A stretch of DNA of 64,000 nucleotides from an uncultured Clostridia bacterium. GTDB lineage: Bacteria; Bacillota; Clostridia; TANB77; CAG-508. Both the position numbers and the translations under genes were made by a program. Within the stretch, counting starts at the first letter, position 1, and each line of letters starts with the position of its first letter. Under the pieces are notes generated by a model that worked only from the letters and a program-made list of their open reading frames with translations, made no database searches and was not told the DNA's origin. Below, piece after piece: positions 8,932 through 55,515 of this stretch. The stretch is from positions 20,499 through 84,498 of the forward strand of contig CANRHX010000001.1 in the NCBI GenBank assembly GCA_947630545.1, in the 5' to 3' direction.

Positions 8932-9882
8932 TTATAATTTTTCTAAATATTTCTTTTGCAATTTATAATTTGAATGAATATATTTATTCAGTGTAATTTC
9001 AACACTAGAATGCCCTAAAACTTCACTCAAACTTTTTATGTCCATTCCTACCTCTAAGCAATTATTTGCAAAAGTATGTCGCAAAGCATGAAATTTATAA
9101 GATTTTATTTTACAATTCTTAAGTTTCTGCTTAAAGAATTTTTGATAATTTCTTGGTTCAATAAACTTTTCATTATTACCAGTCAAGAAAAAATCATTTT
9201 CTTTATATTTCTTCTTTAACGGTTTTAAAATTTCATACAATTTATTTGATATAGGTATTGTTCTTATTGAATGAATTGTTTTTGGAACATCAATTATAAC
9301 TTTAGTTCCATTTTCTTTATTCTCATAAACCCTTTGTAATGTTTTTCTTACGAACAATAATTTCTTATCTAAATTAATATTTTCCCACTTTAAAGCACAG
9401 ACTTCTCCAATTCTTAATCCAGTATTTAAACAAATTAATATTCCTATACTTTTTAAAGAATTTTCTCTAATACAAGCATTCTCAAGTTTTCCTCTTTCTT
9501 TATTACTTAATATTTCTACTTTTTCTTGCATTAGTTTTGGACTTTTAATTTTCTTTATTTTCAAATTACAATTATATTCTTCATTTCCATATGCCAATAT
9601 TGATTTTAAAATACACAATATATCTCTTGTTGTTTTGCTTGAAAGTTCATCCATTAGATTTATTACAAATTTATTAAAATTATAATTTTGCAATGCTTCT
9701 ATTTCAATATCTCCAAAAGTCGGCATGATATATCTATTAATAGAATAAACATATTTGCAATAAGTTGATTCTTTTATTGATATTTTCTTTATTTCTAGCC
9801 ATTCATTTACTAATTTCCTAAAATTTAATTTATCATCTTCTTTCTTTACTATATTTTTTTTGAGCTTATTTAATAATTTCAT
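8932..9882 (-). CDS. tyrosine-type site-specific recombinase/integrase
   Basis: 316 aa. The C-terminal catalytic motif is 'HALRHTFANNCLEVGMDIKSLSEVLGHSSVEITLNKYIH' (R..H..R/H..Y). Confidence 0.8.
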   Translation of the reverse strand: MKLLNKLKKNIVKKEDDKLNFRKLVNEWLEIKKISIKESTYCKYVYSINRYIMPTFGDIEIEALQNYNFNKFVINLMDELSSKTTRDILCILKSILAYGNEEYNCNLKIKKIKSPKLMQEKVEILSNKERGKLENACIRENSLKSIGILICLNTGLRIGEVCALKWENINLDKKLLFVRKTLQRVYENKENGTKVIIDVPKTIHSIRTIPISNKLYEILKPLKKKYKENDFFLTGNNEKFIEPRNYQKFFKQKLKNCKIKSYKFHALRHTFANNCLEVGMDIKSLSEVLGHSSVEITLNKYIHSNYKLQKKYLEKL

Positions 9883-21152: not shown

Positions 21153-21223
21153 TTTTGTGTCAACGGTTCCAGGTTTGGATGACACAAAATGTGTCAACGG
21201 TTCCGGGTTTGAATGACACAAAT
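21153..21223. repeat. REP-like palindromic tandem repeat, 2 units (GTGTCA-N17-TGACAC), orientation A
   Basis: gtgtcaacggttccaggtttggatgacac and gtgtcaacggttccgggtttgaatgacac. Confidence 0.85.
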
Positions 21224-21244: not shown

Positions 21245-23368
21245 ATGAAAAATGGAGGTGAAAAATTGGCAAAAAAGGTAATCAATAAAAACAACATTAA
21301 TTTAAGATTTAATATAGCAACGATTATAACATATTTTGTTGGTATAATCCTAATTGTGCAATTATTCAACCTTCAAATAGTCCATGGAGAGGAATATAGA
21401 GAACAGTCGAATACACGTCTAACGCGTGAAACATCATTAGAGGCTGCAAGAGGTAAAATATTAGATAGAACAGGAAGTGTACTTGTTACATCAGAGACCA
21501 CATTTGGATTAGAATTATATAAAAGTAAAGTAGATTCAGAAACATTAAATAATTGCATGTTAGCTATAGTAAATACATTAACAAAATATAAAAAGTATGA
21601 GCCAGATTCATTTCCAATAGAAGTAAATCCATATAAATACACAATAAAAGGAGAAGAACTTACAAATTGGCAACAAGAAAATGGTATAACAGTTGGTAAA
21701 ACTCCTGAACAAGTTTTTAATGAATACAAAGAGAAATTTGAAGTTAAGAATACTAATCTTGAAGATGCAAGAAAAATAATAGGATTAAGATATGAAATAT
21801 CTAAAACAGGTTACAGTAGCACAAGAGCATATAGATTGGCAGACAATATATCACGTGAAGCAGTTGCTGAATTCAGTGAAAAAAGTGATCAATTTCCAGG
21901 TATAAATATAGTTGTAGAGCCCAAAAGACAATATACTTCAGGAACTGTTGCATCTCATATTCTAGGGTATGCAGGGAAAATAAATCAAACTGAATATGAA
22001 GAGAACAAAGATGAATATGACATTAATGACATAATAGGAAGAACAGGAATTGAATATGCATTTGAAGGATACCTGAAAGGTAAAAACGGAACAAGGCAAA
22101 TTGATATGGGGGTTGATGGAACATCATCTGGAGAATATGTAACCAAAGATGCTGTTGCAGGTTCAAACATAGTACTTACTATTGATGCAAATTTACAAAG
22201 AATTGTTGAAAAAGCTTTAGAGCAAAATATAAAGAAAATTGCAAGTGGAGGATTTGGAAAAAAATATGATGCAAAAGCAGGTAGTGCAGTTGTAATGAAC
22301 GTAAAAACAGGAGAAGTTCTTGCAATGGCAAGTTATCCAGACTATAATCCAGCCCTATTTGTTGATGGAATAAGTACCAAAGATTGGAACAATTACAATA
22401 ATAACAAAAATCATCCACTTGTCAACAAAGCAATGCAAGTATCATATTCACCAGGATCAACGTTCAAAATGGTTTCAGCAATTGCAGCATTAGAATCTGG
22501 AGTAGTAACAACTACAGAAAGAATTAATGATACAGGAGTATACAAACTTGGCAATAGAACTTGGAATTGTTGGTACTATACAGATTATCATGTTGGACAT
22601 GGAAGCCTTAACGTATCCGGTGCAATAAAAAATTCATGTAACTACTATTTTTACGAAGTAGGAAAAAGAATGGGAATAGATAAGCTAGTAAAATATGCTA
22701 AATACTTTGGTTTAGGAAGTAAAACAGGAATAGAACTTGGTGATGAAGCAAAAGGGGTATTAGCAAGCAAACAAGTAAAAGAGGCAAGAGGAGAAACATG
22801 GGTTGCAGGTGATACATTAAACTCAGTAATTGGACAAGGACTAAATGAATTTACTCCACTTCAAATGGCGAAATATATAAGTATTTTAGCAAATGGTGGA
22901 AAAAAAGTAGATGTATCAATAGTAAAATCAGTAATAAATGCAGATGGTACAGAAGTTCCAAGAGAAGAAATAGACAACTATATAAATAAAAGGTTGAACT
23001 TAACAGAAGAGGAAGATGATGGAACTACTATAAATAAAGATTATTTAAAAGTAATACTAAAAGGAATGCAGTCCGTAACACAAGAGGTAGGTGGAACTGC
23101 ATACAACATATTCAAAAACTTTAGCATAAAAGTTGGAGGAAAAACAGGTTCAGCAGAAGCGCCAGGAAACAAAGTAAACGCTTGGTTTGTTGGATTTGCA
23201 CCATTTGATGATCCAGAGATAGCAATAGTAGTTATGGTTGAAAATGGTGGACATGGAAATTATACAGCAGAGGTTGTAAGAGATATAATGGCAGAATACT
23301 TTGGAATGAATACACAAGATATAAAAGAAGACTTATCTGCTAAGGTTTATACTGAAATTTTACAATAA
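21245..23368 (+). CDS. mrdA: penicillin-binding protein 2 (elongasome transpeptidase)
   Basis: 707 aa with an N-terminal TM. It has the SXXK motif 'STFK', an 'SCN' motif, and 'KTGS'. It sits in the mreBCD-pbp-minC order. Confidence 0.85.
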   Translation: MKNGGEKLAKKVINKNNINLRFNIATIITYFVGIILIVQLFNLQIVHGEEYREQSNTRLTRETSLEAARGKILDRTGSVLVTSETTFGLELYKSKVDSETLNNCMLAIVNTLTKYKKYEPDSFPIEVNPYKYTIKGEELTNWQQENGITVGKTPEQVFNEYKEKFEVKNTNLEDARKIIGLRYEISKTGYSSTRAYRLADNISREAVAEFSEKSDQFPGINIVVEPKRQYTSGTVASHILGYAGKINQTEYEENKDEYDINDIIGRTGIEYAFEGYLKGKNGTRQIDMGVDGTSSGEYVTKDAVAGSNIVLTIDANLQRIVEKALEQNIKKIASGGFGKKYDAKAGSAVVMNVKTGEVLAMASYPDYNPALFVDGISTKDWNNYNNNKNHPLVNKAMQVSYSPGSTFKMVSAIAALESGVVTTTERINDTGVYKLGNRTWNCWYYTDYHVGHGSLNVSGAIKNSCNYYFYEVGKRMGIDKLVKYAKYFGLGSKTGIELGDEAKGVLASKQVKEARGETWVAGDTLNSVIGQGLNEFTPLQMAKYISILANGGKKVDVSIVKSVINADGTEVPREEIDNYINKRLNLTEEEDDGTTINKDYLKVILKGMQSVTQEVGGTAYNIFKNFSIKVGGKTGSAEAPGNKVNAWFVGFAPFDDPEIAIVVMVENGGHGNYTAEVVRDIMAEYFGMNTQDIKEDLSAKVYTEILQ

Positions 23369-23472
23369 AAATGTGTCACTCAAACCCGGAACCAATGACA
23401 CAAAATGTGTCACTCAAACCCGGAACCAATGGCACAAAATGTGTCAACCAAACCCGGAACCGATGACACAAA
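23367..23472. repeat. REP-like palindromic tandem repeat, 3 units, orientation B
   Basis: Three units of (aaaatgtgtcactcaaacccggaaccaatgacac), with no spacers. Confidence 0.85.
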
Positions 23473-23490
23473 AATGAAAGGATGTAGAAG

Positions 23491-24102
23491 ATGAAAAATT
23501 GCATAAGTATTAATTTAAAAAGGAATGAATTGATTATAAAAATTACTGAAGATGCAAGTTATGAAAATATAATAGAAAGCTTAAAAAAGAAATTACCAGA
23601 GTTAAAAAAGTTATATCAAGAAGATAAGACGCCAATAAGAGTTTCAGGGAAGATTCTAAAAAATAAAGAAATTGATGAACTTCAGAATATTATAAAAGAA
23701 AATATTGATGTTGACATTGAATTTGATACACCTAAAAGCCTAGGGCTAGCAAGCATAAAGAAAACCTTTGACCAAGAGATAGCTATTTCTGAAACGAAAT
23801 TTCATAGAGGATCTTTAAGGTCTGGACAAAAGATGGAAGTTGAAGGTAGTATTGTAATAATTGGAGATGTTAATTCAGGTGCAGAAATAATGGCATCAGA
23901 CAATATAGTTGTTTTAGGAAACTTAAGGGGATTGGCACATGCTGGGGCCAAAGGAAATAAACAAGCAATTATTGCTGCAGGGGTATTTGATTCAGTTCAA
24001 GTTAGAATAGCAAATATAGTAAGGGAAATAGATAGAGATGAAGAACCATTACACAAAAATTCATATTTATATATAGAAGATGATAAAATAGTAATTGAAT
24101 AA
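23491..24102 (+). CDS. minC: septum site-determining protein MinC
   Basis: 203 aa. The C-terminal beta-helix pattern is 'GSIVIIGDVNSGAEIMASDNIVVLGNLRGLAHAG'. Confidence 0.8.
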   Translation: MKNCISINLKRNELIIKITEDASYENIIESLKKKLPELKKLYQEDKTPIRVSGKILKNKEIDELQNIIKENIDVDIEFDTPKSLGLASIKKTFDQEIAISETKFHRGSLRSGQKMEVEGSIVIIGDVNSGAEIMASDNIVVLGNLRGLAHAGAKGNKQAIIAAGVFDSVQVRIANIVREIDRDEEPLHKNSYLYIEDDKIVIE

Positions 24103-24106
24103 TAAA

Positions 24107-24487
24107 TTAAGTAAGTAGAATTAATATTAAGCAAATAAAAAGCATTTCATCTTTTACTCCCTCAAGGTAAAGAGAAAGCAAGATGCACAGTATAAGTATA
24201 TCATCAGAATATAATTCTATACCTAAAATATTTATATAAGCTTGGCTATCAGATTTACAATTACGGTTATCATAATCCTTACTATCATCTAAAGTACTAC
24301 TAGAATCCATACTAGTAGTATTTTTTTTAACGTTTTCTTGTGAAGTATGTAAGTTTACATTATTTTGATTATATTTTGAATCAGTACTTATAGGCTTTCG
24401 ATTATAGTAATTTCTTGAATAATAATTCCTATAATATGGAAAATCAAAAAAAGGGTTATTATACATTTTATCATTCCTTTTTATCAT
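24107..24487 (-). CDS. hypothetical Tyr/Asn-rich protein
   Basis: 126 aa. Low-complexity YYxNYY repeats with a C-terminal hydrophobic stretch. Confidence 0.3.
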   Translation of the reverse strand: MIKRNDKMYNNPFFDFPYYRNYYSRNYYNRKPISTDSKYNQNNVNLHTSQENVKKNTTSMDSSSTLDDSKDYDNRNCKSDSQAYINILGIELYSDDILILCILLSLYLEGVKDEMLFICLILILLT

Positions 24488-24929
24488 TTTTTAATATATC
24501 TGCAATTTTTGAAAAATTAAGCAAATTCACATATTGATCTAATTTTTCTTGTTTTGATTGTCTTAAATAAGGCTTTAAAGAATAAAGCAAATTTGATCTA
24601 GGATCATTTTTATCATTCATTTTTTCCATAGCTGACTTCATTTTTAGAATAGTATCCATATCTATTTTACTAAAATCAAATCCAGAAGAACTAGAGTTAT
24701 ATGAATTTTGAGAGCTAGTAGTATTATTAGAGTTACTTGAATTATTTGAACTACTATTTTGTTTTTTTTCATTATATTGATTCTGGTTTTGAGAGTTAAT
24801 CATTTTGGAAAAATTTTCTATCATTTCGGGAGAAATTTGAGAAATTGCATCAGATATATTACCATTGTCCACCATATTTTTTATATTATTCATTATTTCT
24901 GGATTTATATTATTATCCACATAAACCAC
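24471..24929 (-). CDS. hypothetical Ser/Asn-rich protein
   Basis: 152 aa. A low-complexity SN-rich centre with conserved-looking termini. Confidence 0.3.
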   Translation of the reverse strand: MVYVDNNINPEIMNNIKNMVDNGNISDAISQISPEMIENFSKMINSQNQNQYNEKKQNSSSNNSSNSNNTTSSQNSYNSSSSGFDFSKIDMDTILKMKSAMEKMNDKNDPRSNLLYSLKPYLRQSKQEKLDQYVNLLNFSKIADILKNDKKE

Positions 24930-25079
24930 CTCTAATTTTAATATATTATTATAATTATATGTTTAACAATTAAAAAAGTACCAAATTGATAAAAAGTAGT
25001 CATATTAAATTATGATATAAGTATAATTTACAAAAAGGGAAGATTTTACATAAAAAGTTAATAAATTTCAATAAAATTG

Positions 25080-25108
25080 TTGAAAAATAAGTAAAAACGA
25101 TGTATAAT
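25080..25108 (+). promoter_or_regulatory. sigma-A-type promoter (TTGAAA-17-TATAAT) for the adhesin A-B operon
   Basis: TTGAAA at 25080-25085, a 17-nt spacer, TATAAT at 25103-25108. The leader to the ATG at 25297 is about 190 nt. Confidence 0.5.
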
Positions 25109-25296
25109 ATAAGATAGGTTGATATGTAAATATTGCTTTGTAATATAAATGTAATAAAAATTTAACGAAAAAGTAATATTTGCGTTAAAAATATTTCCGT
25201 AACTATATACAAAGTTAAAAAAATATACATATTGACTGTAAGAAAAATTATTATATATTATTATATTAAGGAATAAAATTTTAAGGAGGAAGAAAT

Positions 25297-28200
25297 ATGA
25301 AAGGGAAATTATTACAAAGATTAATTGCCGTGGTTTTAGTTTTATGTTTAACAGCAACTAATTTTATTTTTGTTGCTACAAGCACAGTATATGCTTTAAG
25401 CACAACAACTGAGTTAGAAGGAGGAAAAATCATATTTGAAGCATATTTTAAAAATGGCGATCAAAAAGTAACTGAAAAAACAGCAAATATATCAGAAGGA
25501 GATAAACTTTATTTAAATTTAGAATTAAAAGCAGGTAAACTCCAAGATGCAAAAATAAAAATAGACAATGCAAATTTCAAAATAATGGATGATAAAGTTA
25601 ATAATAAATTTATAAACAATATCAATACCAAAACAAATGAAATTGCATTAAATGAAATAAACTATAATGATAGTAAAAATGGAGTTATAGAAATAGAATT
25701 ACCAATTAAATTTGAAGAAGCAGAAAAAATACCTACTTCTTATTTTGCTAGGGAAAATAGTATAAACCTTTCAGGAAAATATAAAAATTCCTCTGAAAAT
25801 GCAAAAAATATACAAAGTGATACAATAAAAACAAAATTAACATGGGCACAACAAACAGATGGAATAAACTATAGTACAAAAATAGAGAAAGTAATTTATT
25901 TTGATAATAAAACATTAGTACAAGCAAACATCCAATCAACATACAAAGGAGCATATTTCCCAAAAGAAACAGAAACAGTAACAGTAAATCTTCCAAAAAT
26001 AGATAACATTACTCCAAGTTATACAGTTTTAGTAGATGGAAACAAACTAGATGTAAATCAAATAACAGATAGTATAGAGACACAAACAATGTCATTCACA
26101 AATAATTTTATAGATGATGAAAACATTACATGGAACAAATCTGGAAATTCATATAAAGTTATATATGTTTATGATGGAATAACAAAATTAGAAGACCCAC
26201 TACAAATACAACCAAAAATAGAAACAAAACTATTTAACAATGATAAAAAATTAACAGGAAGTCCAACATATAAATCAAATAAGCCACAAGGAACTATAGC
26301 AAGTGTTAGTGCAAAATCAACATCAGGAGATGTATATAAAGGTTATATGTATGCTAATTCAGAAGAAACAAGATATTCAGAAGAATATAACATGGAAATG
26401 TCTTATGTAGATGGAATTACATCAACATTTGAGTTAGCAGGAGATAAGTTCAAAACACAAGATGGTGAAGAAATTAGCACAAACAATCAAACCGAATATA
26501 AAGAAATAAGAATAAATAAAGAAAAACTAGTTAAAGTACTAGGAACAAAAGGTAGTTTAAAAATAATACCAGACAACAAGGAATTAAGTGAATTTGTAAT
26601 AAACTCAACCAGTTCAGCTGATGAAAATGGAAACATAGTAATAAACAATGATAGAATTAAAGGATCACACAATGTAACAATTCAAGTAACATCAGCAGAA
26701 AACCCAGGAACATTAACAATTTTAGCAACTAAAGCTATAAAAGGAAATGCTGGATATGAAAAAGACACATTAAAAACAATAAATGCAATAGAAACAACTA
26801 TAAAATCATATACAGATAATGTAGAAGGAACATCAACTGCGTCAGCAACAACAGGATTAAAAGAAACAGTAACACAAGCAACAATAACAATGAATAACAA
26901 CAATATACTTTCAACAACAAGTACAAACAACATTGAATTCATTGCAACTTTAAAAACAGGTACAATGGATACAGATTTACTAAAAGAGCCAACAGTAAAA
27001 ATCATATTGCCAGATGAAGTAACAAAAATTGAGTTAAGTTCAGTATCTGCTTTATATGCAGAAAAAGAATTAAAAATAGCAAGTGCACAAGTAGTTGATA
27101 ACAACAAAGCAATATTAGTAAAACTAGATGGTGAGCAATTCAAATATAACAATAAATTTATTGAAGGTATAAAAATTACTGTAAATGCACAAATAACATT
27201 AAATGATTCTGCAACATCAAGAGATACAAAAATTACAATGAAATATACAAACGAAAATAGTGCTAATAAAGAATATACAGCAACTACTGATGTATCAGTC
27301 CAAGCACCTTATGGAATTATTAAAAAAGCAGCTATTTCTGCATACTTTGAAACAGAAAACAATGGAACAGAAACATTAACAACTAGATTAATAAACAATT
27401 ATGGAAAATCAGTTGAAAACATAGCTATAATTGGAACAATGCCAAGCGTAAAATTATCTAAAAATGAATTTGAAAAAGGAATAAAAGACAGTTTCCAATC
27501 AAGCTTCTCTAGTGATAAAAATAAAAAGGCAAATATAGAAATAAAATATTCACAAGATGAAGAAAATTTCAATGATAGCTTTGAAAATGCAAAATTATAT
27601 AAAATAATATTAAAAGATAATAAATTAGAAAGTAAAGAAATGTTAGGAATAAAATTCACATTAAATATTTCTCAAATTTTACCAAACTTTAAACTTTCTT
27701 ATATATATGATAGTGATGAAAAGGTTGAAAATTTACAAATTAATGAAATGACATCAGGAACAAGCAAAAATGAAAATAAAAAACCAGAAACATCAGGAAA
27801 TACAGGAACAGAAGAACAATCAGGAGAAACAAGACCAACAAATCCAACAACACCAACAACTCCAAATGCTGAAAAAGATGAAAATCTAAGAGTAGGATTA
27901 AATATAAAATCAGGAAATACTGAATTAAAAGATGGAGATGAAATATTTGCAGGGCAAACAATAAGATATACCTATAAAATATTAAATAATACAGGAAAAG
28001 AAGTAAAAAATATAAAACTTGTAGTAAATCATGAAAATGCAAATATATTCGAAGAACAAACAGAGCAACAAACTAATACAGCAAGACCTGATGAAAAAAT
28101 AAATTTCACATATGAAGTAGAAACAGAAAAATCAAGCAAAGAGTACACTATAGGTACAATGAAAGATGGAGAAACAAAAACTATAACATATCAAGTAAGA

Positions 28201-30315
28201 GTTAAAGAAGGTGTACAACAAACAAAAGTAGTAACTGAAGTACAAGCAGATGGAATGAAAACATTAAAATCTGAAAAATCTAATAAAGTAAAATCAGCAC
28301 AATTAAAACTAGGGCTAACAAACAATGTATCAAAAGAAATAGGAACAGTAGAAAATAATATATTTGCTAACACATTTGAAATAAAAAATACATCAAATGA
28401 AACTTTAAAAGATATATCAGTTAAGTTTACAATTCCAAAAGAATTTGAATATGTAGAAGTTTATGAATTAGATCCTAGTAACAATTATCAAATTATACAA
28501 CAAGACAAAAATTATTTAGTATTTAATGTTAAAGAACTAGCATCAGGAGCAACAAAGGAATTAAATGTTTCTTTAAGAACAATTGATGGAAAACCAGAAG
28601 AAGAATCTGTTTCAATTAACTATACAGCTACAGTAAACAATAACACATATTACTCTAATGAAGTAGATATTGCATTAAAACAAGCATTATCAACAAAATT
28701 AGAAACAAAACAAGTTGTAAATGCTACAGGAATTTTAAAAACAGGAGATAAATTAATTTATAAAATTGCAATAAAAAATGTTGGAGAAAATTCAGATGGA
28801 ATAACAATAGAAGACTTTGTCCCAGAAGCTGCTGTTGTAAAAAATGCATATTACACAATAGGAGATAAACAAACAAAAATAGAAAATATTACAGATAATG
28901 CAATTGTGGAAACTATTACAATAGATAAAAATCAACAAGCAGATGTATATATAGAAACTGAAATAGATGAAGCAAAAACAGGAAAAGAAGAAATTACAAA
29001 CTATGCAACATTAGTTGGAAATTATTTAGAAAAAGAAATAAAAACAAACGAAGTTACACATAAATTACAAGCTAATATCCAAGAAGATTCAGAAACAACA
29101 GAAAATCCTGGTTCAGAAGAAGAACCAGGAACAGAAGAAAATCCAGGAACAACAGAAAATCCAGGTTCAGAAGAGAAACCAGGAACAACAGAAAATCCAG
29201 GATCAACAACTAACCCAGGAACAACAGGAAATAGTGAAGGAACAGGAACAATACCAGCGGAAGTTGAAATGAAAGGAAGCATTTCAGGTGTTGCATGGTT
29301 AGACGAAAATAAAAATGGTATTAGGGAAACAAATGAGAAAATGCTATCAGGAATAAAAGTATCACTTGCAAATGTTGCTACCGGAAAATATGTAACAAAT
29401 TCACAAGGAAATAAATTAGAAGTTACAACAAATGCAAATGGTGAATACATATTTGAAAACATTCCAAATGGAAAATATATTGTAACATTTTTATTTGATA
29501 ACACAAAATATAGAAACACAGAATATAGAGTAAGTGGCGCAACAGAAAAGACAAATTCTGATATTATAACAAGTAAAATAAGTTCAAATGATGATGATAT
29601 AAAATATGGAATAACAGATACATTAGAACTTACTACAGATAGTTTAGAAAATGTAGATGCAGGATTTATAGAAAATGAAATATTTGACTTAAGTTTACAA
29701 AAATACGTAACAAAAGTTACAGTACAAAATACATCAGGAACAGTAGTAAAAGAATATAGCAATGAACAATTAGCAAAATTAGAAATAGATGCTAAAAACA
29801 TAGCAGGTTCAACAGTATTAATTGAATACTCAATACGAGTAAAAAATGAAGGAGAAATTGCTGGATATGCTAATGAAATCATAGATTATATACCAAAAGA
29901 TTTAACATTTAGCTCTGAAATTAATAAAAACTGGTATACATCAACAGATGGATACTTGCATACAACAGCATTATCAAAACAAATAATTAATCCAGGAGAG
30001 ACAGAAACAATTAAATTAGTCTTAGTAAAAACAATGACAGAAAATAATACAGGATTAACATCAAATAAAGCTGAAATTGCAAAATCAAGTAACGATTTAT
30101 CAATACCAGATAAAGATTCAAAAGCTGGAAACGCTATACAAGGAGAAGATGATATTAGTGAGGCAGAATTAATTATATCAATTAGAACAGGTATTGGATA
30201 TACAATCGGAACTATAGTAGCAATAATAGCATTAACCGCAACAGGTATAATAGTTTATACAAAAAAGAGAAAGGGGGTAAATCATAATGCAAAAAAAATC
30301 GATAAAATTAATTAG
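25297..30315 (+). CDS. giant cell-wall-anchored surface protein A (DUF11 repeats, Cna-B/SdrD-B domain, [S/T]xxTG sorting signal)
   Basis: 1672 aa. It has a signal peptide, DUF11-like repeats ('TIRYTYKILNNTGKEVKNI...') and a PGTE-rich linker. The Cna-B-type domain is 'SGVAWLDENKNGIRETNEKMLSGIKVSL...NGEYIFENIPNGKYIV'. The C-terminus is 'SIRTG' plus a TM plus 'KKRKG'. Confidence 0.8.
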   Translation: MKGKLLQRLIAVVLVLCLTATNFIFVATSTVYALSTTTELEGGKIIFEAYFKNGDQKVTEKTANISEGDKLYLNLELKAGKLQDAKIKIDNANFKIMDDKVNNKFINNINTKTNEIALNEINYNDSKNGVIEIELPIKFEEAEKIPTSYFARENSINLSGKYKNSSENAKNIQSDTIKTKLTWAQQTDGINYSTKIEKVIYFDNKTLVQANIQSTYKGAYFPKETETVTVNLPKIDNITPSYTVLVDGNKLDVNQITDSIETQTMSFTNNFIDDENITWNKSGNSYKVIYVYDGITKLEDPLQIQPKIETKLFNNDKKLTGSPTYKSNKPQGTIASVSAKSTSGDVYKGYMYANSEETRYSEEYNMEMSYVDGITSTFELAGDKFKTQDGEEISTNNQTEYKEIRINKEKLVKVLGTKGSLKIIPDNKELSEFVINSTSSADENGNIVINNDRIKGSHNVTIQVTSAENPGTLTILATKAIKGNAGYEKDTLKTINAIETTIKSYTDNVEGTSTASATTGLKETVTQATITMNNNNILSTTSTNNIEFIATLKTGTMDTDLLKEPTVKIILPDEVTKIELSSVSALYAEKELKIASAQVVDNNKAILVKLDGEQFKYNNKFIEGIKITVNAQITLNDSATSRDTKITMKYTNENSANKEYTATTDVSVQAPYGIIKKAAISAYFETENNGTETLTTRLINNYGKSVENIAIIGTMPSVKLSKNEFEKGIKDSFQSSFSSDKNKKANIEIKYSQDEENFNDSFENAKLYKIILKDNKLESKEMLGIKFTLNISQILPNFKLSYIYDSDEKVENLQINEMTSGTSKNENKKPETSGNTGTEEQSGETRPTNPTTPTTPNAEKDENLRVGLNIKSGNTELKDGDEIFAGQTIRYTYKILNNTGKEVKNIKLVVNHENANIFEEQTEQQTNTARPDEKINFTYEVETEKSSKEYTIGTMKDGETKTITYQVRVKEGVQQTKVVTEVQADGMKTLKSEKSNKVKSAQLKLGLTNNVSKEIGTVENNIFANTFEIKNTSNETLKDISVKFTIPKEFEYVEVYELDPSNNYQIIQQDKNYLVFNVKELASGATKELNVSLRTIDGKPEEESVSINYTATVNNNTYYSNEVDIALKQALSTKLETKQVVNATGILKTGDKLIYKIAIKNVGENSDGITIEDFVPEAAVVKNAYYTIGDKQTKIENITDNAIVETITIDKNQQADVYIETEIDEAKTGKEEITNYATLVGNYLEKEIKTNEVTHKLQANIQEDSETTENPGSEEEPGTEENPGTTENPGSEEKPGTTENPGSTTNPGTTGNSEGTGTIPAEVEMKGSISGVAWLDENKNGIRETNEKMLSGIKVSLANVATGKYVTNSQGNKLEVTTNANGEYIFENIPNGKYIVTFLFDNTKYRNTEYRVSGATEKTNSDIITSKISSNDDDIKYGITDTLELTTDSLENVDAGFIENEIFDLSLQKYVTKVTVQNTSGTVVKEYSNEQLAKLEIDAKNIAGSTVLIEYSIRVKNEGEIAGYANEIIDYIPKDLTFSSEINKNWYTSTDGYLHTTALSKQIINPGETETIKLVLVKTMTENNTGLTSNKAEIAKSSNDLSIPDKDSKAGNAIQGEDDISEAELIISIRTGIGYTIGTIVAIIALTATGIIVYTKKRKGVNHNAKKIDKIN

Positions 30316-33300
30316 AAATATTGCATTTTCATTAATTGCATTTATATTATTAATAAGTATATTAGTAAGTACAAATATTGCAAAATCAATTGATGATGCA
30401 GAAACAGTTAATGATGTTATTGATTGCACAAGAAATTCATCATGGTATGATTTTGACCCTAGTGATGTAGTTAACAAAAAAATAGTATCTGGAAGAGATA
30501 TAAGTTTTAGCAAAGCTGGAGGATATTGTGTTGACCCCCATCAAAGAGCATATAAAGGAACATACAAAGTTGTAAATGTAATAGATGTAAACAATAATAC
30601 TTCAGGAAATTCCATAAGAGTATATGGTATAAATAAAAATGGAAAAACAACAAATAAAGAATATTCATTCTCAAATGAAAATGTAAAACCAATACTAATG
30701 TTAGCTTATTTAGCAAAAAAAGGAAACAATGAAACTAGTGTATCTACTGATCCTGCAGTTTACATGAAAAATTCATATAAAGCAGCAATGCCAGGAGTAT
30801 TCTTAAAAGAAACTTATCTAAAACAAATGATTAAAGTAGGATTGTCAGATTATTTAATACCATCAACATATTCTGCATATGATGAAGGAGCATGGGAGAA
30901 ATTAGCAGAAGCTCAAAAAGAAGCGACAAAATTAGCTAAACAAGGAAGTAAAGAAACAGCTGCTATGAGTGATAAAACAGACAAAGATAATGTAAGCTCA
31001 TTTACATCAGATGATGGAAAATTCTTCATAGGACCATATAAATTAGGATTAACAGGAGAATGTAAAATTGGAGAAATAAAAATAAATGGTAGCATAGATG
31101 CTGTTGGAATATCAACAGATGGAAAAAGTGTAGAAGATTTTGACAAAGTAGTAGATGAAAAAGAATTTTACATAGTATTGGACAAAGAAATAGATGACAT
31201 AAAATCTATAAAAATTACAGCTAAAGAAAGTATTAGTTCAGTAAAAGCTAGATTATTAATGGTAAGTGGTGGACTTAGCCAAAACTTCTTCATATATAGG
31301 GCAGAAGATAAACCACAAAAACCATCAATCGATTTAGAAGTACCAAAATTTGGTAAACTTGAAATTAAGAAAACAGACCAATTTAAAGATGCTGATGTAA
31401 GTTTAAAAGATATAGGATTTGTGGTATGGAGCGAAAGTAAAAAAGCATATATAAATGTAAATAATGGAAAAATATCATACGTTGATTTCGAAACAGCTAA
31501 GAAAGACGAAAACGAATTTAAAACAGATAAAAACGGAGTAGTACCAACAATAGATAATTTACCACTTGGAAAATATAAAATATATGAAACATCTATACCA
31601 TCACAATTACAAGATTACTATGAATTAAAAGAAATAACATTACCAGACAAAAACGGAAAAGAAGTAAAAGCCAATGCAAAAGTAGTAACTATAAAAAATG
31701 ATGCTGGTAAAACTCAAAGTTATGTACAAGTAAAATCAGGTCAGACAGCAACAGTAACAGCTATAAATTATAGAGACTTTAACACATTAATTCTAAAAAA
31801 GATAGAAGAAGATACAGGAGTACCTTTAAATGGAATAGAATTTAAATTATATAGTTTAATAGAAGGAAAAAAAGGATGGGTTCAAGTAGATAGCGAAAAC
31901 AGAGTTACAGGAGTAACAGACGACTTCGAACAAGCATCTCCATTTGTAACAGTAAACAATGGCGTTACACCAAAAATTTATAGAGTTCCTTTAGGAAAAT
32001 ATGCTGTATATGAAACAGACCTAGGTGAATATGAAGATATATATCAAGAATTAGAGCCAATAAGAATGGAAGGTGGTAACACTGGAGGAAAGGGATTATT
32101 CAAAGGAAATATAACTGTTGAAGCAAATAAAGAAAATGAATTTAGTGTTACAGTAGACAATAAACAAGTTTATACTTCATTAATTCTTAAAAAGATTGAC
32201 GAAGATACAGGATTACCTTTAAGTGGAATAGAATTTAAATTATATAGTAAAGTAGAAGGAAAAATTGGATGGGTTCAAGTAGATAGCCAAAATAAAGTTA
32301 CAGGAGTAACAGGCAAATTTGAAGAGGGATCTAAATTTGTAACAGGAGCCGATGGACTTACACCAAAAATTACAAAAATTCCTTTAGGAGAATATGATGT
32401 ATATGAAACAGGTTTAGGCGAATATGAAGATATATATCAAGAATTAGAGCCAATAATAATTGACGGCAGTGATACTGGAGGAAAGGGATTATTCAAAGGA
32501 ACTATAACTGTTGAACCAAATGAAGAACATGAATTTACTGCGACAGCAAAAAATAAACAAGTTTATATAAGCATATCAGGAAATGTTTGGGAAGAAGTAG
32601 CAGTAGGAAAAGACCAAAAAACAACTAATGGTTTATTAGACAGTAATGATAACATGATAAATGGTATAGAAGTAAAATTAATGGATAAAACAACTAACCA
32701 AGCTATTCAAACAACCAAAACATCAAATGGCGGAAAATATAAATTTGAAAAAGTTAAGATAGAAGAATTAGAAAATTACTATATCGAATTTACATATGAT
32801 GGTGTAACATATCAGAGTGTAATAACACCAAATGCTGATTCTACAACGCAAATAACTGATGAAAATACATCAAAAGCATCAGAAACAGCTGAAGCAAGAA
32901 AAGAGTTAAATAATGCATTTACAGAGTTAACAGGTGAAGGACAAAAATTACATTACAAAAAAGACATTACATTAACATATAGTAAAGAAAAAGATGGAGA
33001 CAATACAGTAGTAACTTCAAATAACATATGTGACAGAAATAAAGGTATAAATGCATCACAAAGAATTGTAAACTTAAGCAAATTAGGAGATTTTACAATA
33101 GAAGGTGATACAACAAGCGATTATTTATCTAGCAAGTACAAAGAATTAAAAGCAAGTAACGAAAAAGAAATAATTAGAGAAATAAAAAATGTTAACTTAG
33201 GATTATATGTAAGAGAACAACCAAACTTAGCTTTAGTAAAAGATGTAAGTACAGCAAATGTTTCTATAAATGGAAAAACATATGTATATAGTTATGAAAA

Positions 33301-35533
33301 AAGATTAGATCAAGATGCAATTCCAACAGCAGTCGGAGTAGTATTTGAAAGAAAGAACCCAATAGATGAAAGCTTAAAATACAAAATGCCAGTATACAGA
33401 GCAGATGCTGCATATGAAAATGAAGATAAATCTAAAGAGTTACAAGTATCAATTACTTATAAAGTTGGATTAGTAAATAACTCTAAATCACTATATGGAA
33501 AAGTAAATGCCTTAAATGAATACTATTCAAAAGAATTAGAATTCACAAAAATGTACACTTTAGAAAATAATAAAGAACAAGTACTAAGTAATAAGGCAAA
33601 TGAAAGTACAAGTGGAAACTATAAATCAGCTAAATTTGATAATTTAAACATTCAAGTAGAACCACAAACAACACAATATATTTATATACAATTTAAATTA
33701 CCAAAAGAAGGCTTCTATAATATGGCAAGCAAAGAGCTTGATACTACTAAAGACTTTAGAAACTATGCAGAAATTGCAAGTTACACAATATATTCAGATA
33801 AATTTGATAGCTTATATGCAGGATTTGACACAAATTCAATACCAAACAATTTAGACATTAATAAAGAAGCAGAAACAATGGAAGATGATTCAGACAAAGC
33901 ACCAGGATTACAGGTTGTAGATGCTGGAGAAAGAACATTAAATGGTATGGTATTTGAAGACAGTGACAAAGATAAAAATGATCAACAAAGAATAGGCGAT
34001 GGAAAATATGCAGATGGTGAAAACAAAATAGCCAATGTAAAAGTAAGATTATTAGATAGCAATGGTACTGAAGTAAAAGTATATAATTCAGAGAAAAAAG
34101 AATTCATTGATCAAAGTAGCAAATCAAATGAAAATGGTGAATATACAATCTCTGGTTTCATACCTGGAGACTACACAGTTCAATATACTTGGGGTGAAGG
34201 CGAAGGTACAGTAGTAAAAAACGGAAAAGATACAGCCATTACAGTAGATTCATACAAATCTACAATATGGACAGATGAAAGCAAAAAAGAAAAAGAATCC
34301 AAAACATGGTATTTACAAAATGACCCAAGATATTCAGATGCATTAGATAATTATGATATTAGATTAGAATTAGATAAAAATAATGCTGACCTATTAAATG
34401 TATTAAGTCAACAAGTATCAGATGTAAATGGAGTATCAAATAAAGCAACAATGAAATCAGATACTAAAGGAATAGAAGTAGGAATTGAATTAAAAGACTA
34501 TGAAGAAGTTTTAGTAAACGATGCACCTGTATATAAATTTAACATTAAAAATATAGATTTAGGTCTAATTGAAAGACCAAGACAAAATATGGAAATATCA
34601 AAATCTGTAGAATCATTAAGATTAGTAACAGATGCAAACCAAGTTATATTAGAAGCTAAAGTAAATGATGAAGGCAAATTAGAAGTTCAAGCAGGTTCTG
34701 TAACTGGTGGACCAAGTTATGGATATATAAGAGGAGAGACAGATAGTGACCTTATCGATAGTGGAACTTCTGCAATAGTTGGATACAAAATAACTGTAAA
34801 GAATACTAGTGAGAAAGACTATGCTTCTAAAGACTACTACTTATATGGAAAAGTAGACGAAAGCAAAGCAATTGCATTAAAAGCAACAGCAATATATGAT
34901 TACTTAAAAGGATTAAATGCAGACGTAGAAGCAAATATAAACTGGAAAGTATTAGAACATGAATCTGATGAAACAAAAGTACCAACAGTATCAGAAAAAA
35001 CAGCTACAATGATAGCTCAAAACGATTCAAGCAGTAGTTGGTATTCATACTCATACAAAAATGATAAGGGAGAAACAGTTAACGGTGTTGTAAAAGAAGT
35101 TGCTGGTAGTGAAACAAAAGAGACACTTAAAGAATACGTAGAAGAAATGCAAGAATCAACAGAAGTAACATTTAAAAATTTAATAACTGAAAACAGAGTA
35201 GTGTCAAAATTTGAAGAAAATGGAAAACCAGAAATTGAATTAAAAGCAGGAGAAGAAAAAGTAATTAAATTCTCTGGAAAACAACTATTATCAACTACTA
35301 ACGATATAAGATTTGACAATGATGTAGAAATAGAAAATGTAATTAGAAAAGGAGAAACAGGAAGAAGCGTTATTGTTGAATATAGTAAATTCTATAACAA
35401 ATCAGAATGGATAACTATTACACCACCTACTGGAGAAGATAAAGATTATACAGCTATAATAATTATATCAGTTGCAGCAGTTGCAATTTTAGGAGCAGGT
35501 ATAGTATTCATTAAGAAAAAAGTTTTAAAATAA
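30287..35533 (+). CDS. giant cell-wall-anchored surface protein B (tandem SpaA/Cna-B-like domains, TPPTG sorting signal)
   Basis: 1748 aa. Its start overlaps the end of A by 29 nt, with RBS AAGGGGG. It has a signal peptide. There is an internal 116-aa tandem duplication ('ILKKIEEDTGVPLNGIEFKLYS...'). SdrD-B-like modules are 'SGNVWEEVAVGKDQKTTNG..' and 'NGMVFEDSDKDKND..'. The C-terminus is 'TPPTG' plus a TM plus 'KKKVLK'. Confidence 0.8.
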   Translation: MQKKSIKLIRNIAFSLIAFILLISILVSTNIAKSIDDAETVNDVIDCTRNSSWYDFDPSDVVNKKIVSGRDISFSKAGGYCVDPHQRAYKGTYKVVNVIDVNNNTSGNSIRVYGINKNGKTTNKEYSFSNENVKPILMLAYLAKKGNNETSVSTDPAVYMKNSYKAAMPGVFLKETYLKQMIKVGLSDYLIPSTYSAYDEGAWEKLAEAQKEATKLAKQGSKETAAMSDKTDKDNVSSFTSDDGKFFIGPYKLGLTGECKIGEIKINGSIDAVGISTDGKSVEDFDKVVDEKEFYIVLDKEIDDIKSIKITAKESISSVKARLLMVSGGLSQNFFIYRAEDKPQKPSIDLEVPKFGKLEIKKTDQFKDADVSLKDIGFVVWSESKKAYINVNNGKISYVDFETAKKDENEFKTDKNGVVPTIDNLPLGKYKIYETSIPSQLQDYYELKEITLPDKNGKEVKANAKVVTIKNDAGKTQSYVQVKSGQTATVTAINYRDFNTLILKKIEEDTGVPLNGIEFKLYSLIEGKKGWVQVDSENRVTGVTDDFEQASPFVTVNNGVTPKIYRVPLGKYAVYETDLGEYEDIYQELEPIRMEGGNTGGKGLFKGNITVEANKENEFSVTVDNKQVYTSLILKKIDEDTGLPLSGIEFKLYSKVEGKIGWVQVDSQNKVTGVTGKFEEGSKFVTGADGLTPKITKIPLGEYDVYETGLGEYEDIYQELEPIIIDGSDTGGKGLFKGTITVEPNEEHEFTATAKNKQVYISISGNVWEEVAVGKDQKTTNGLLDSNDNMINGIEVKLMDKTTNQAIQTTKTSNGGKYKFEKVKIEELENYYIEFTYDGVTYQSVITPNADSTTQITDENTSKASETAEARKELNNAFTELTGEGQKLHYKKDITLTYSKEKDGDNTVVTSNNICDRNKGINASQRIVNLSKLGDFTIEGDTTSDYLSSKYKELKASNEKEIIREIKNVNLGLYVREQPNLALVKDVSTANVSINGKTYVYSYEKRLDQDAIPTAVGVVFERKNPIDESLKYKMPVYRADAAYENEDKSKELQVSITYKVGLVNNSKSLYGKVNALNEYYSKELEFTKMYTLENNKEQVLSNKANESTSGNYKSAKFDNLNIQVEPQTTQYIYIQFKLPKEGFYNMASKELDTTKDFRNYAEIASYTIYSDKFDSLYAGFDTNSIPNNLDINKEAETMEDDSDKAPGLQVVDAGERTLNGMVFEDSDKDKNDQQRIGDGKYADGENKIANVKVRLLDSNGTEVKVYNSEKKEFIDQSSKSNENGEYTISGFIPGDYTVQYTWGEGEGTVVKNGKDTAITVDSYKSTIWTDESKKEKESKTWYLQNDPRYSDALDNYDIRLELDKNNADLLNVLSQQVSDVNGVSNKATMKSDTKGIEVGIELKDYEEVLVNDAPVYKFNIKNIDLGLIERPRQNMEISKSVESLRLVTDANQVILEAKVNDEGKLEVQAGSVTGGPSYGYIRGETDSDLIDSGTSAIVGYKITVKNTSEKDYASKDYYLYGKVDESKAIALKATAIYDYLKGLNADVEANINWKVLEHESDETKVPTVSEKTATMIAQNDSSSSWYSYSYKNDKGETVNGVVKEVAGSETKETLKEYVEEMQESTEVTFKNLITENRVVSKFEENGKPEIELKAGEEKVIKFSGKQLLSTTNDIRFDNDVEIENVIRKGETGRSVIVEYSKFYNKSEWITITPPTGEDKDYTAIIIISVAAVAILGAGIVFIKKKVLK

Positions 35534-35548: not shown

Positions 35549-35580
35549 AACAAGTAGATTTAAAAATCTACTTGTTTTTT
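35549..35580 (+). terminator. rho-independent terminator after adhesin gene B
   Basis: The stem acaagtagattt/aaatctacttgt has a 4-nt loop and is followed by TTTTTTT. Confidence 0.6.
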
Positions 35581-35581
35581 T

Positions 35582-35644
35582 GTGTCACTGGTTCCGGGTT
35601 TGGTTGACACATTTTGTGTCAAAGATTCCAGGTTTGGATTAGTC
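35582..35644. repeat. REP-like palindromic repeat, 2 units (second degenerate), orientation A
   Basis: gtgtcactggttccgggtttggttgacac and gtgtcaaagattccaggtttggattagtc. Confidence 0.75.
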
Positions 35645-35921
35645 ATATATTGCAAAAAGCTAGGGAAATAGCTAGTTTGCAATTTAATGAAAATATTTTT
35701 AATTGAAAAAAATTATATGATATGAAAATGTAATAAAAATTTAATTTAAGCACAGCAAAAAAACCCGAAAACTATTTCCGTAGTAGCTTTAGAGTTAATT
35801 CATGTAATATTAGAAGAATAGCTCAAATAAGCTTATTGACTAAAAAAAACAAAAATATTAATATAAAATTAAGTTGTAATGTGTAAAAAGCAACTTAACA
35901 ATAAACTTTAGGAGGCATGAA

Positions 35922-40823: not shown

Positions 40824-41178
40824 TGGAAATTCATATACATGGAAATGTCAAAACGAAGATATATGGGATAATGTGACCAACATTACAAAAACAGTTACAG
40901 AAGTTACAGGACCTTTTTACGTAGGACAAGCTTCAACAACAACAAGTGACGAATATAAATGGTATTTAGAGAAAGTTAACACAGATGCAGACGTAAAAAT
41001 AGTTGCTAAAAATGACAAATATATAATCGGACCTCTTGGAATACAAAATGTTGGAAAATATAAATGTGAAAATTTCTCTTTTGAAGTTATAGGTGATGGA
41101 GGAATAAGTGATACAGTTACAGAGGTTTGTAATGCAGATGGATCTAATCCACATCAAGATAATGGTCAATCACGGTAA
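40656..41178 (+). other. N-terminal region of adhesin gene D, split across three reading frames
   Basis: The signal-peptide-like segment 'IFGIVIILLILGINNSNA|YDYEEDFF...' is in the frame of gene C. The next part is in frame +1 (the 40873-41178 ORF, plus 33 upstream codons). The rest is in the frame of the main D ORF from about 41170. This implies two indels, or pseudogenisation of the N-terminus of D. Confidence 0.5.
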
Positions 41179-55497: not shown

Positions 55498-55515
55498 TGA
55501 AAGGATAGTTTAAAT

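What the first reader, a model, noticed from the sequence alone, without database searches (positions are those of the whole stretch)
25147..25201. Shared two-block leader motif upstream of both adhesin operons (AATGTAATAAAAATTTAA ... TATTTCCGTA)
The untranslated leaders of A (25147-25165 and 25192-25201) and of C (35726-35744 and 35773-35782) share an identical 19-nt block and an identical 10-nt block, 26-28 nt apart. The surrounding sequence is not conserved. The conservation argues for a common cis-regulatory element, either a transcription-factor site or a small leader RNA structure. The A copy can pair TTAACG/CGTTAA across the spacer. Both operons would then be co-regulated. An HD-GYP two-component system lies at the end of the window.
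Basis: seen in the sequence. Interest (0 to 1): 0.6.

Follow-up and report, generated by a model that had tools for sequence, protein, structure and literature searches.

The report
Shared upstream control site of surface-protein genes
The two short identical blocks in front of both giant adhesin operons are real, and they belong to a conserved two-part DNA control site that sits at fixed helical-turn distances upstream of ordinary promoters of secreted and surface-protein genes in about 75 species of uncultured gut Clostridia; it is most likely a docking site for an unidentified transcription factor and not a leader RNA.

Summary
AAATGTAATAAAAATTTAA (25147-25165; 35726-35744) and TATTTCCGTA (25192-25201; 35773-35782) are identical in both copies. 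They lie 26 and 28 nt apart, in otherwise unalike DNA.

A degenerate two-block pattern found 84 loci, almost all in uncultured gut Clostridia (Ca. Scatovivens, Clostridium sp. CAG:389 and CAG:440). Every copy points at a large ORF that starts 130-270 nt downstream. About 95% of those ORFs carry a signal peptide. They include A/C-like adhesins and unrelated proteins: papain-type proteases with dockerin, LRR proteins with dockerin, and Flg_new, SpaA and SH3 proteins.

No consensus RNA structure or covariation exists. Block 1 is an array of T(G/T)TAAT hexamers spaced 11 bp apart. Block 2 (TTCCGTAR) lies about four helical turns downstream of block 1. Block 2 also sits 30, 41, 52 or 63 bp upstream of the -35 hexamer of a sigma-A-type promoter (10-10.5 bp periodicity, p <= 2e-4).

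Best reading: a helical-phase-locked upstream binding site, probably for an activator, belonging to a lineage-wide secretome regulon. The factor is unknown. The WalR/OmpR-like repeat geometry is only a lead. No link to the HD-GYP system was found.

The parts
25139..25177 (+). Copy A, distal half. Hexamer array at 11-bp steps: TGTAAT (25139), TGTAAT (25150), TTTAAC (25161), AGTAAT (25172).
   Evidence: Sequence. Conserved in six orthologous loci. TGTWAH lies exactly 11 bp upstream of the central hexamer in 30 of 94 family members and at most twice at any other offset.
25192..25202 (+). Copy A, block 2: TATTTCCGTAA (family core TTCCGTAR). It ends 30 bp upstream of the -35 hexamer.
   Evidence: TTCCGTAA is invariant in the six orthologues. 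Phase-locked to the -35 hexamer across the family.
25232..25261 (+). Operon A proximal sigma-A-type promoter (P2): TTGACT-N18-TATTAT (alternatively N16-TATATT). It lies downstream of the motif.
   Evidence: TATTGACT and the -10 region are invariant in orthologues.
25080..25108 (+). Operon A distal promoter-like element (P1): TTGAAA-N17-TATAAT, with TG in the extended -10 position. It lies upstream of the motif and is specific to A-type loci.
   Evidence: 11 of 12 matches. Invariant -35 hexamer and TGTATAAT in six orthologues.
35718..35745 (+). Copy C, distal half: degenerate TGATAT (35718), TGTAAT (35729), TTTAAT (35740). It contains block 1 (35726-35744).
   Evidence: Conserved in five orthologous loci, where the upstream hexamer is TGTTAC, TGTCAT or TATTAC.
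35773..35783 (+). Copy C, block 2: TATTTCCGTAG. It ends 53 bp upstream of the -35 hexamer.
35803..35811 (+). Extra TGTAATATT box between block 2 and the promoter of operon C.
   Evidence: Invariant TGTAATATT in the five C-type orthologues. Common in other loci about 20 nt after CCGTA.
35836..35864 (+). Operon C sigma-A-type promoter: TTGACT-N17-TAATAT.
35661..35670 (-). Inverted block-2-like box TATTTCCCTA (TAGGGAAATA on the plus strand), 113 bp upstream of block 2. It belongs to a third box family, TTCCCTAR.
   Evidence: one mismatch. TAGGGAAA is conserved in C-type orthologues. CCCTA or TAGGG occurs within 150 nt upstream of block 1 in 34 of 95 loci.

Best explanation
The two blocks are the conserved core of a bipartite upstream regulatory DNA site about 60 bp long. 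It belongs to a regulon of secreted and surface-protein genes in a lineage of uncultured, AT-rich gut Clostridia.

The distal half (block 1) is an array of T(G/T)TAAT hexamers, each followed by an A-tract and repeated every 11 bp. This is the geometry used by winged-helix regulators that bind head-to-tail. The proximal half (block 2, TTCCGTAR) lies 42-44 bp, about four helical turns, downstream of the central hexamer. Phased A-tracts fill the stretch between them.

Block 2 sits a whole number of helical turns upstream of the -35 hexamer of an ordinary sigma-A-type promoter. With a 17-bp promoter spacer, its centre is at about -68.5, -79.5, -90.5 or -101.5. I infer that a protein or protein complex bound here touches RNA polymerase, or loops to it, from one face of the helix. 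It would thereby switch the two adhesin operons and the other regulon members together, most probably as a class-I-type activator.

Shown here: the conservation, the regulon-wide distribution, the lack of RNA structure and the helical phasing.

Inferred only: that a protein binds, that the effect is activation, and what kind of factor it is. An OmpR/PhoB/WalR-type response regulator is my leading guess, at about 25%.
For: 1. The motif is kept upstream of both A-type and C-type genes in syntenic relatives at 46-62% protein identity, while the spacers diverge. The spacing from the central hexamer to CGTA is fixed at 42 nt in A-type and 44 nt in C-type loci.
2. A degenerate pattern finds 84 loci, nearly all in one lineage. 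Every copy points at a large ORF downstream. 69 of 79 ORFs pass a crude signal-peptide test, and most of the rest visibly have one. Targets include unrelated families: Peptidase_C1 with dockerin, LRR with dockerin, Flg_new, SpaA, SH3.
3. Block 1 never occurs without block 2 in 0.9 Mb of fetched DNA: 87 of 87.
4. There is no RNA structure. RNAalifold gives 0 pairs on 40 copies, there is no covariation, and the fold z-scores are ordinary.
5. TGTWAH lies exactly 11 bp upstream of the central hexamer in 30 of 94 copies and 0-2 times at other offsets. A-tracts peak at -52, -41, -30 (weak), -20 and -10 relative to CGTA.
6. A sigma-A-like promoter scoring at least 10 of 12 lies downstream in 55% of loci, against 12% of shuffles.
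7. The distance from CCGTA to that -35 hexamer is quantised at 30/31, 33/34, 41-43, 45, 52/53 and 61-64 bp. Rayleigh R = 0.74 at 10-10.25 bp, and none of 5000 random sets reached it, using 23 dereplicated family-distance pairs. One protein family (A-like) occupies several of these classes. Block 2 is the phase-locked element (R 0.75), not block 1 (R 0.2-0.37).
Against: - No transcription start site, binding protein or expression data are available.
- The promoter calls are consensus matches in very AT-rich DNA. About 45% of loci lack a match scoring 10 or more within 75 nt.
- Dereplication was crude: 9 BLAST-linked families.
- Block 2 contains CGTA, the -10 core of sigma-I and some ECF promoters, so it could itself be a promoter element.
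- The upstream hexamer of the WalR-like pair is exact in only a third of copies, and it is degenerate in the window's own copy C.
- In operon A a conserved promoter (P1) lies upstream, so there the motif is also transcribed.
- No regulator gene is consistently linked to the motif.
Confidence: 0.6

Rival explanations
1. Block 2 is the -10 element (CGTA) of a promoter read by an alternative sigma factor of the sigma-I or ECF type. Block 1 would then be an upstream specificity or activator site at about -60 to -45, and transcription would start a few bases after CCGTA.
For: - CGWA is the sigma-I -10 motif, and CGTA is among its validated forms. One validated C. thermocellum dockerin-enzyme promoter even reads cttcCGtAaaag (PMC4711584; PMC10575876).
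- Sigma-I/RsgI systems control dockerin-bearing proteins, and many targets here carry dockerins.
- An A-tract followed by a G+C patch lies upstream of CGTA.
Against: - The geometry does not fit. Sigma-I needs AAA-N13/14-CGWA, or N15 in Bacillales. Here the A-tracts lie 18 and 8 nt from CGTA, with the G+C patch where AAA should be.
- The ECF AAC-N16/17-CGT form is not conserved either: C at -17 or -18 occurs in only 10-22% of copies.
- The best conserved block would fall outside any -35 position.
- Helical phasing of block 2 against a downstream sigma-A promoter has no reason under this model.
- No sigI/rsgI pair is in the window. The only sigma gene is an ECF-type one beside an integrase.
Confidence: 0.15
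2. The element works as RNA. It would be a leader motif, riboswitch, attenuator or nut-like antitermination site: a linear box followed by a hairpin with a conserved CCGUA loop, needed to transcribe very long genes.
For: - Operon A has a conserved promoter upstream of the motif.
- 10-17% of copies carry long perfect hairpins centred on CCGTA and followed by a T-run (L066, L090, L060, L034, L080, L030; z -3.5 to -9).
- The target genes are unusually long.
Against: - The median hairpin z-score is 0, and the hairpins are not conserved between orthologues: strong in L005-C, absent in window C.
- RNAalifold finds 0 pairs and there is no covariation.
- The window copies fold no better than shuffles.
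- There are no Rfam hits.
- Most loci, including operon C, show no conserved promoter upstream of block 1, while a conserved one lies downstream.
- DNA-helix periodicity is not an RNA property.
Confidence: 0.06
3. The blocks are recombination or structural DNA sites. They could be inverted-repeat ends of an invertible phase-variation switch, or a mobile promoter cassette. They could also be intrinsically curved DNA bound by a nucleoid protein or a looping repressor, not a dedicated activator.
For: - An inverted copy of block 2 with one mismatch lies 113 bp upstream in operon C (35661-35670).
- TTCCCTAR or YTAGGGAA boxes occur upstream in 34 of 95 loci, in either orientation.
- Phased A-tracts imply curvature.
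- Surface adhesins are classic phase-variable genes.
Against: - All 98 HMM hits in 825 kb keep block 1 and block 2 in the same order and orientation toward the gene. No flipped variant was seen, not even between independent assemblies of the same species: L003/L004, L005/L006, L009/L010.
- The promoter lies outside the putative invertible segment.
- No recombinase is linked.
- Sequence-specific conservation of 19 and 8 bp exceeds what curvature alone needs.
- A looping repressor is not excluded and is really a sign-reversed version of the main model.
Confidence: 0.12

Closest known systems
Class I activator sites (CRP/FNR type: one face of the helix, near -61.5, -71.5, -82.5, -92.5)
   Same: It is a discrete upstream site whose distance to the core sigma-70-type promoter changes only in steps of one helical turn. 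The block 2 centres are at about -68.5, -79.5, -90.5 and -101.5.
   Different: The site is not a 5-N6-5 or 5-N4-5 palindrome. It is bipartite and strongly asymmetric, spans about 60 bp and lies further upstream. The factor is unknown and activation is inferred, not shown.
WalR/VicR (YycF) and related OmpR/PhoB-family boxes, TGTWAH-N5-TGTWAH (PMC9210968)
   Same: The hexamer, the 11-bp direct-repeat spacing and the A/T-rich 5-bp spacer match. Copy A reads TGTAAT-ataaa-TGTAAT, a perfect match. The targets are cell-envelope proteins.
   Different: - The upstream half-site is exact in only 30 of 94 copies, and it is TGATAT in copy C.
- The third repeat is YTTAAT.
- An obligatory second box, TTCCGTAR, four turns away is not part of any WalR site.
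- Known WalR regulons centre on peptidoglycan hydrolases, not on dockerin or adhesin proteins.
- The array lies more than 110 bp from the start site.
Sigma-I/RsgI-controlled promoters of cellulosomal (dockerin) genes in Clostridium thermocellum
   Same: A lineage-wide promoter signature placed before dockerin-bearing secreted proteins. It has a CGWA-like core (CGTA) and A-tracts upstream.
   Different: The A-tract to CGWA spacing (13-15 nt) is not met. A separate sigma-A-type promoter lies downstream at phased distances. No sigI/rsgI genes were seen.
Secretome or virulon regulators with box-marked regulons (PlcR box in Bacillus cereus; Mga and RofA-like regulators of streptococcal adhesins)
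   Same: One short conserved box marks many otherwise unrelated genes for secreted and surface proteins, upstream of sigma-A promoters.
   Different: The sequence and architecture are unrelated to the PlcR palindrome TATGNAN4TNCATA (recalled from memory, not tested). No RRNPP-type or Mga-type gene was found nearby.

Membership tests
Class I-type upstream activator site | The distance to the core promoter varies only by whole helical turns (face-of-helix dependence). | tested here: met
   Distances from CCGTA to the -35 hexamer cluster at 30/31, 33/34, 41-43, 45, 52/53 and 61-64 bp. Rayleigh R = 0.74 at 10-10.25 bp, p <= 2e-4 on 23 dereplicated pairs.
Class I-type upstream activator site | A protein binds the site and raises transcription through contact with RNA polymerase. 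| not testable with these tools
   Needs EMSA or footprinting and reporter assays.
WalR/VicR (OmpR family) binding site | Direct repeat TGTWAH-N5-TGTWAH. | tested here: inconclusive
   Copy A is a perfect match (25139-25155). Copy C has two mismatches in the first half-site. The family gives 30 exact matches in 94, all at offset -11.
WalR/VicR (OmpR family) binding site | The site precedes cell-wall hydrolase or envelope genes controlled by WalRK, and walRK is present in the genome. | not tested
   Targets are adhesins, dockerin proteases and LRR proteins. Complete genomes were not available.
Sigma-I-dependent promoter | A-tract (AAA) 13-14 nt (15 in Bacillales) upstream of CGWA, with a specificity region 5' of the A-tract. 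| tested here: not met
   CGTA is present, but the A-rich peaks lie 18 and 8 nt upstream, with a G+C patch at -17 to -13 where AAA is required (consensus from PMC4711584).
ECF sigma promoter | -35 AAC, then 16-17 nt, then -10 CGT. | tested here: not met
   C at -17 or -18 relative to CGTA occurs in only 10-22% of 93 copies. There is no conserved AAC.
Riboswitch or other described RNA family (including c-di-GMP-I/II) | Match to an Rfam covariance model. | tested here: not met
   No hit at gathering score. Only chance-level hits (E >= 0.33) appear in either region at E <= 10.
Structured leader RNA or attenuator | Conserved helices supported by covariation, or a terminator hairpin in all members. 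| tested here: not met
   RNAalifold finds 0 pairs on 40 copies. Flanking positions pair no more often than shuffles. The median hairpin z-score is 0, and only 17% have z < -2.
Invertible (phase-variable) promoter switch | Inverted repeats flank a segment that is found in both orientations, with a linked recombinase. | tested here: not met
   An imperfect inverted repeat exists in copy C. However, all 98 copies share one orientation, and no recombinase is among the recurrent neighbours. Read-level heterogeneity was not testable.

The most novel reading that the evidence does not exclude
The motif is the operator of a so far unknown, lineage-specific master regulator. That regulator could be two cooperating proteins, or one that bridges two boxes four helical turns apart over curved DNA. 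It would switch on the whole cohesin-dockerin and adhesin 'surfaceome' of a widespread group of uncultured gut Clostridia: giant adhesins, dockerin-tagged cysteine proteases and LRR proteins. The motif would then define this regulon directly from sequence in about 75 species.
Probability: 0.4. Interest if true: 0.6.

Novelty: new member of a known kind. Interest (0 to 1): 0.45.

Why it matters
These bacteria (Ca. Scatovivens and the CAG:389/CAG:440-type Clostridia) are common in human and animal guts but have not been cultured. Nothing is known about how they control their cell surface.

A sequence signature that marks their secreted and surface-protein genes gives three things:
- a computable list of the surface and dockerin proteins that are probably co-expressed;
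- a handle for fishing out the regulator, by DNA-affinity capture or by phylogenetic profiling;
- a natural example of face-of-helix promoter architecture that can be read from comparative sequence alone.

For the window itself, the two giant adhesin operons are probably co-regulated with each other and with many genes elsewhere in the genome.

Tried and rejected
- **Rfam.** The whole window at gathering scores and both regions at E <= 10 gave nothing on the motif.
- **RNA structure.** I ran single-sequence folds on both strands, a duplex test of the flanks around CCGTA against shuffles, RNAalifold on 40 copies and a position-pair covariation test. All were negative for the family. A minority of copies have long hairpins, which remain unexplained.
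- **Sigma-I and ECF promoter geometry.** Checked against position-specific composition and rejected on spacing.
- **Palindrome reading TTACA-N4-TGTAA.** Present in only about 20 of 94 copies. The direct-repeat reading fits better.
- **Block 2 as a near-palindrome or mini-hairpin (CTT-CCGT-AAG).** No covariation.
- **Linked regulator gene.** Clustering of ORFs within 3.5 kb upstream of 84 loci gave only minC/PBP synteny, other surface-protein genes and housekeeping genes. The two small divergent ORFs upstream of operon A (24107-24929) have no Pfam match and look like low-complexity or membrane proteins.
- **Further copies in the window.** None found with the HMM. The M23 peptidase gene and the G5-domain protein gene are therefore not preceded by the motif.
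- **Global alignment of the two upstream regions.** It misaligned the blocks and was replaced by register-anchored comparison.
- **Organism name.** The cluster look-up for the window's own protein returned no name.

Full report
**1. The observation**

The window has 27.7% G+C. The blocks are at the stated coordinates and are identical in both copies:
- AAATGTAATAAAAATTTAA at 25147-25165 and 35726-35744;
- TATTTCCGTA at 25192-25201 and 35773-35782.

The spacers are 26 and 28 nt and are unalike. In the block registers the flanks show only background identity.

A single repeated 19-mer is not rare in such AT-rich DNA. Markov-1 simulations average 0.37 per window. The paired second block makes chance untenable. 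So does an HMM that hits only these two places in 64 kb (E 8.6e-11 and 2.4e-8; next best E = 4). Cross-species conservation points the same way.

**2. Setting**

Four giant surface-protein genes follow mreB-mreC-mreD, a PBP gene and minC:

| Gene | Coordinates |
|---|---|
| A | 25297-30315 |
| B | 30287-35533 |
| C | 35922-40823 |
| D | 41108-46963 |

- They carry SdrD_B, SpaA, DUF11 and CarboxypepD_reg domains.
- A and C share only their C-terminal 300 residues (35% identity). B and D are 33% identical over 1549 residues. The two operons are therefore old paralogues whose upstream DNA has decayed except for a few boxes.
- B is followed by an intrinsic-terminator-like hairpin (35550-35582). 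This was read by eye; the consensus scan did not list it.

**3. Relatives**

The closest homologues of A (46-62% identity) come from uncultured Clostridia MAGs and lie in the same synteny.

In these loci the motif is kept upstream of both the A-type and the C-type gene, while the spacers change. The distance from the central TGTAAT to CGTA is fixed at 42 nt in A-type and 44 nt in C-type loci.

The alignments also show a conserved sigma-A-type promoter downstream of the motif in both types:
- A: TTGACT-N18-TATTAT, 25232-25261;
- C: TTGACT-N17-TAATAT, 35836-35864.

Only A-type loci have a second, very well conserved promoter upstream (TTGAAA-N17-TATAAT with TG, 25080-25108). The blocks therefore lie upstream of the promoter nearest each gene, and calling them an 'untranslated leader' does not hold in general.

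**4. Distribution**

I scanned one genome per species with ATGTWATRWAAWYTTAA-N28-34-YCCGTAR. This gave 84 stretches. Almost all come from uncultured gut Clostridia: Ca. Scatovivens, Clostridium sp. CAG:389 and CAG:440, and MAGs from human, rabbit, ruminant and chicken. Several genomes have two or more hits.
- Two hits look like chance or mis-binning (contigs labelled Variovorax and Muribaculaceae). One more is doubtful (L054, G+C-rich, before an ECF sigma gene).
- In every locus with enough downstream sequence, the motif points at an ORF that starts 130-270 nt downstream. Most of these ORFs are hundreds to more than 2000 aa long.
- 69 of 79 ORFs pass a crude signal-peptide test, and most of the rest visibly have one.
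- Many ORFs are unrelated to A-D. Pfam finds papain-type proteases with dockerin, LRR and BspA-LRR proteins with dockerin, Flg_new repeats, SpaA/pAdhesive and SH3 proteins.
- Block 1 never occurs without block 2 in the 0.9 Mb held (87 of 87).
- An HMM finds 98 copies in 825 kb. All lie before such ORFs, including a divergent pair in L034.

The element is therefore a regulon signature and is not specific to these operons.

**5. RNA or DNA?**

The RNA tests were all negative for the family:
- Rfam has nothing.
- The two window copies fold no better than shuffles (z -0.48 and +1.56).
- RNAalifold on 40 diverse copies returns no pairs.
- Positions flanking CCGTA pair no more often than shuffled columns.
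- A duplex test of the 32-nt flanks gives a median z of 0. Only 17% have z < -2.
- That minority has striking perfect hairpins centred on CCGTA and followed by a T-run. These hairpins are not conserved between orthologues.

The DNA-level signals are strong:
- TGTWAH lies exactly 11 bp upstream of the central TGTAAT in 30 of 94 copies, against 0-2 at other offsets. The next unit, 11 bp downstream, is YTTAAT. Copy A has four such units.
- A-rich peaks recur at -52, -41, -30 (weak), -20 and -10 relative to CGTA.
- A sigma-A-like promoter scoring at least 10 of 12 follows the motif in 55% of loci, against 12% of shuffles.
- Its -35 hexamer lies 30/31, 33/34, 41-43, 45, 52/53 or 61-64 bp after CCGTA. 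On 23 dereplicated family-distance pairs, Rayleigh R is 0.74 at a 10-10.25 bp period. None of 5000 random sets reached this value.
- A-like genes occupy several of these classes, so the pattern is not simple inheritance.
- Block 2 is the phase-locked element (R 0.75). Block 1 is not (R 0.2-0.37).

**6. Mechanism**

The best reading is a bipartite upstream binding site. Block 1 is a head-to-tail hexamer array. Block 2, four turns away across phased A-tracts, sits on a fixed face of the helix relative to RNA polymerase at a sigma-A promoter. This is the logic of class I activation. Binding, the sign of the effect and the factor's identity are inferred.

The repeat geometry equals the WalR consensus TGTWAH-N5-TGTWAH (PMC9210968), and copy A is a perfect match. 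Three things keep this a lead only: the upstream half-site is degenerate in two thirds of copies, including copy C; the TTCCGTAR box is obligatory; and the target set is different.

**7. Rivals**

- **Alternative sigma.** CGTA is a sigma-I/ECF -10 core, and sigma-I controls dockerin genes. However, the sigma-I spacing (AAA-N13/14-CGWA) and the ECF AAC-N16/17 form are both unmet, and phasing to a downstream promoter is unexplained.
- **Invertible switch.** Copy C has an inverted block-2-like box at 35661-35670. A TTCCCTAR/YTAGGGAA box recurs in 34 of 95 loci. No flipped copy and no linked recombinase were seen.
- **Looping repressor or curved-DNA protein.** This remains possible as a sign-reversed version of the main model.

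**8. The HD-GYP system**

The response regulator (REC plus HD_5; 60452-61522, minus strand) and its kinase are there. The regulator has no DNA-binding domain. Nothing links it to the motif.

**9. Verdict**

This is a real, selected cis-regulatory DNA element of a known general kind, an upstream factor site. It is new in sequence, in architecture and in the regulon it defines. The interest is moderate, and it would rise if the regulator and the 'surfaceome' regulon were confirmed.

Noticed in passing
window 47901-48497 (+): A full-length OLE (ornate large extremophilic) RNA, 363 bits against Rfam RF01071. It lies directly after a thymidylate-kinase-like gene (47105-47908).
   Followed up: no
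window 21165-21212, 23368-23483, 35583-35650, 47048-47102, 51897-51917, 52064-52085, 52505-52605, 53805-53816, 55391-55506: A REP-like intergenic repeat family with a unit of about 34 bp: TGTGTCA..TCAAACCCGGAACC..TGACACAAAA, with internal inverted repeats. The core AAACCCGGAACC occurs 17 times (0.03 expected), often as 2-3 tandem units and on either strand. One cluster sits between the B terminator and the C motif.
   Followed up: partly
window 40823-41178: Genes C (ends 40823) and D (starts 41108) are separated by a short overlapping ORF (40873-41178). In relatives L002 and L003 the equivalent is one gene of about 3570-3670 aa. The window copy is therefore probably frameshifted, either as a pseudogene or through assembly error.
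   Followed up: partly
window 35661-35670 (-); about 25116 (+); loci L026, L040, L052, L056, L058, L059, L071, L072, L084, L085 and others: A third conserved box, TTCCCTAR / YTAGGGAA, one base different from block 2. It lies within 150 nt upstream of block 1 in 34 of 95 loci, in either orientation, with preferred offsets of -30/-31 and -41, or -44 to -68.
   Followed up: partly
loci L066, L090, L060 (the same sequence as L005's C-type region), L034, L080, L030, L041, L012, L084: In 10-17% of copies, block 2 sits in the loop of a long, near-perfect inverted repeat (down to -25.7 kcal/mol). The repeat is flanked by an A-run and a T-run, like a bidirectional terminator. It is not conserved between orthologues and remains unexplained.
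   Followed up: partly
window 25043-25071 (-) and 24107-24929 (-): A conserved divergent promoter-like element (TTGAAA-N17-TAAAAT) and two small conserved ORFs (126 and 152 aa). They are low-complexity, Asn/Ser-rich, one has a hydrophobic tail, and neither has a Pfam match. They lie between minC and operon A and are syntenic in 18 motif loci.
   Followed up: partly
window 5641-9882 (-): An ECF-type sigma factor (6677-7219) followed by a 351-aa ORF with no family match. Next to them are a DUF6273 protein and a phage-type integrase (8932-9882). This is possibly an integrated element.
   Followed up: no
L054 981-1038 (+): A pattern match in a more G+C-rich Clostridia MAG precedes an ECF sigma gene (195 aa) and not a secreted protein. 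A sigma-A-like promoter lies 31 bp after CCGTA. This is either chance or a hint of a regulatory cascade.
   Followed up: no
window 23491-24102 (+): minC is followed directly by the adhesin cluster. No minD or minE was seen in the stretch I examined, and the same arrangement holds in all syntenic relatives.
   Followed up: no
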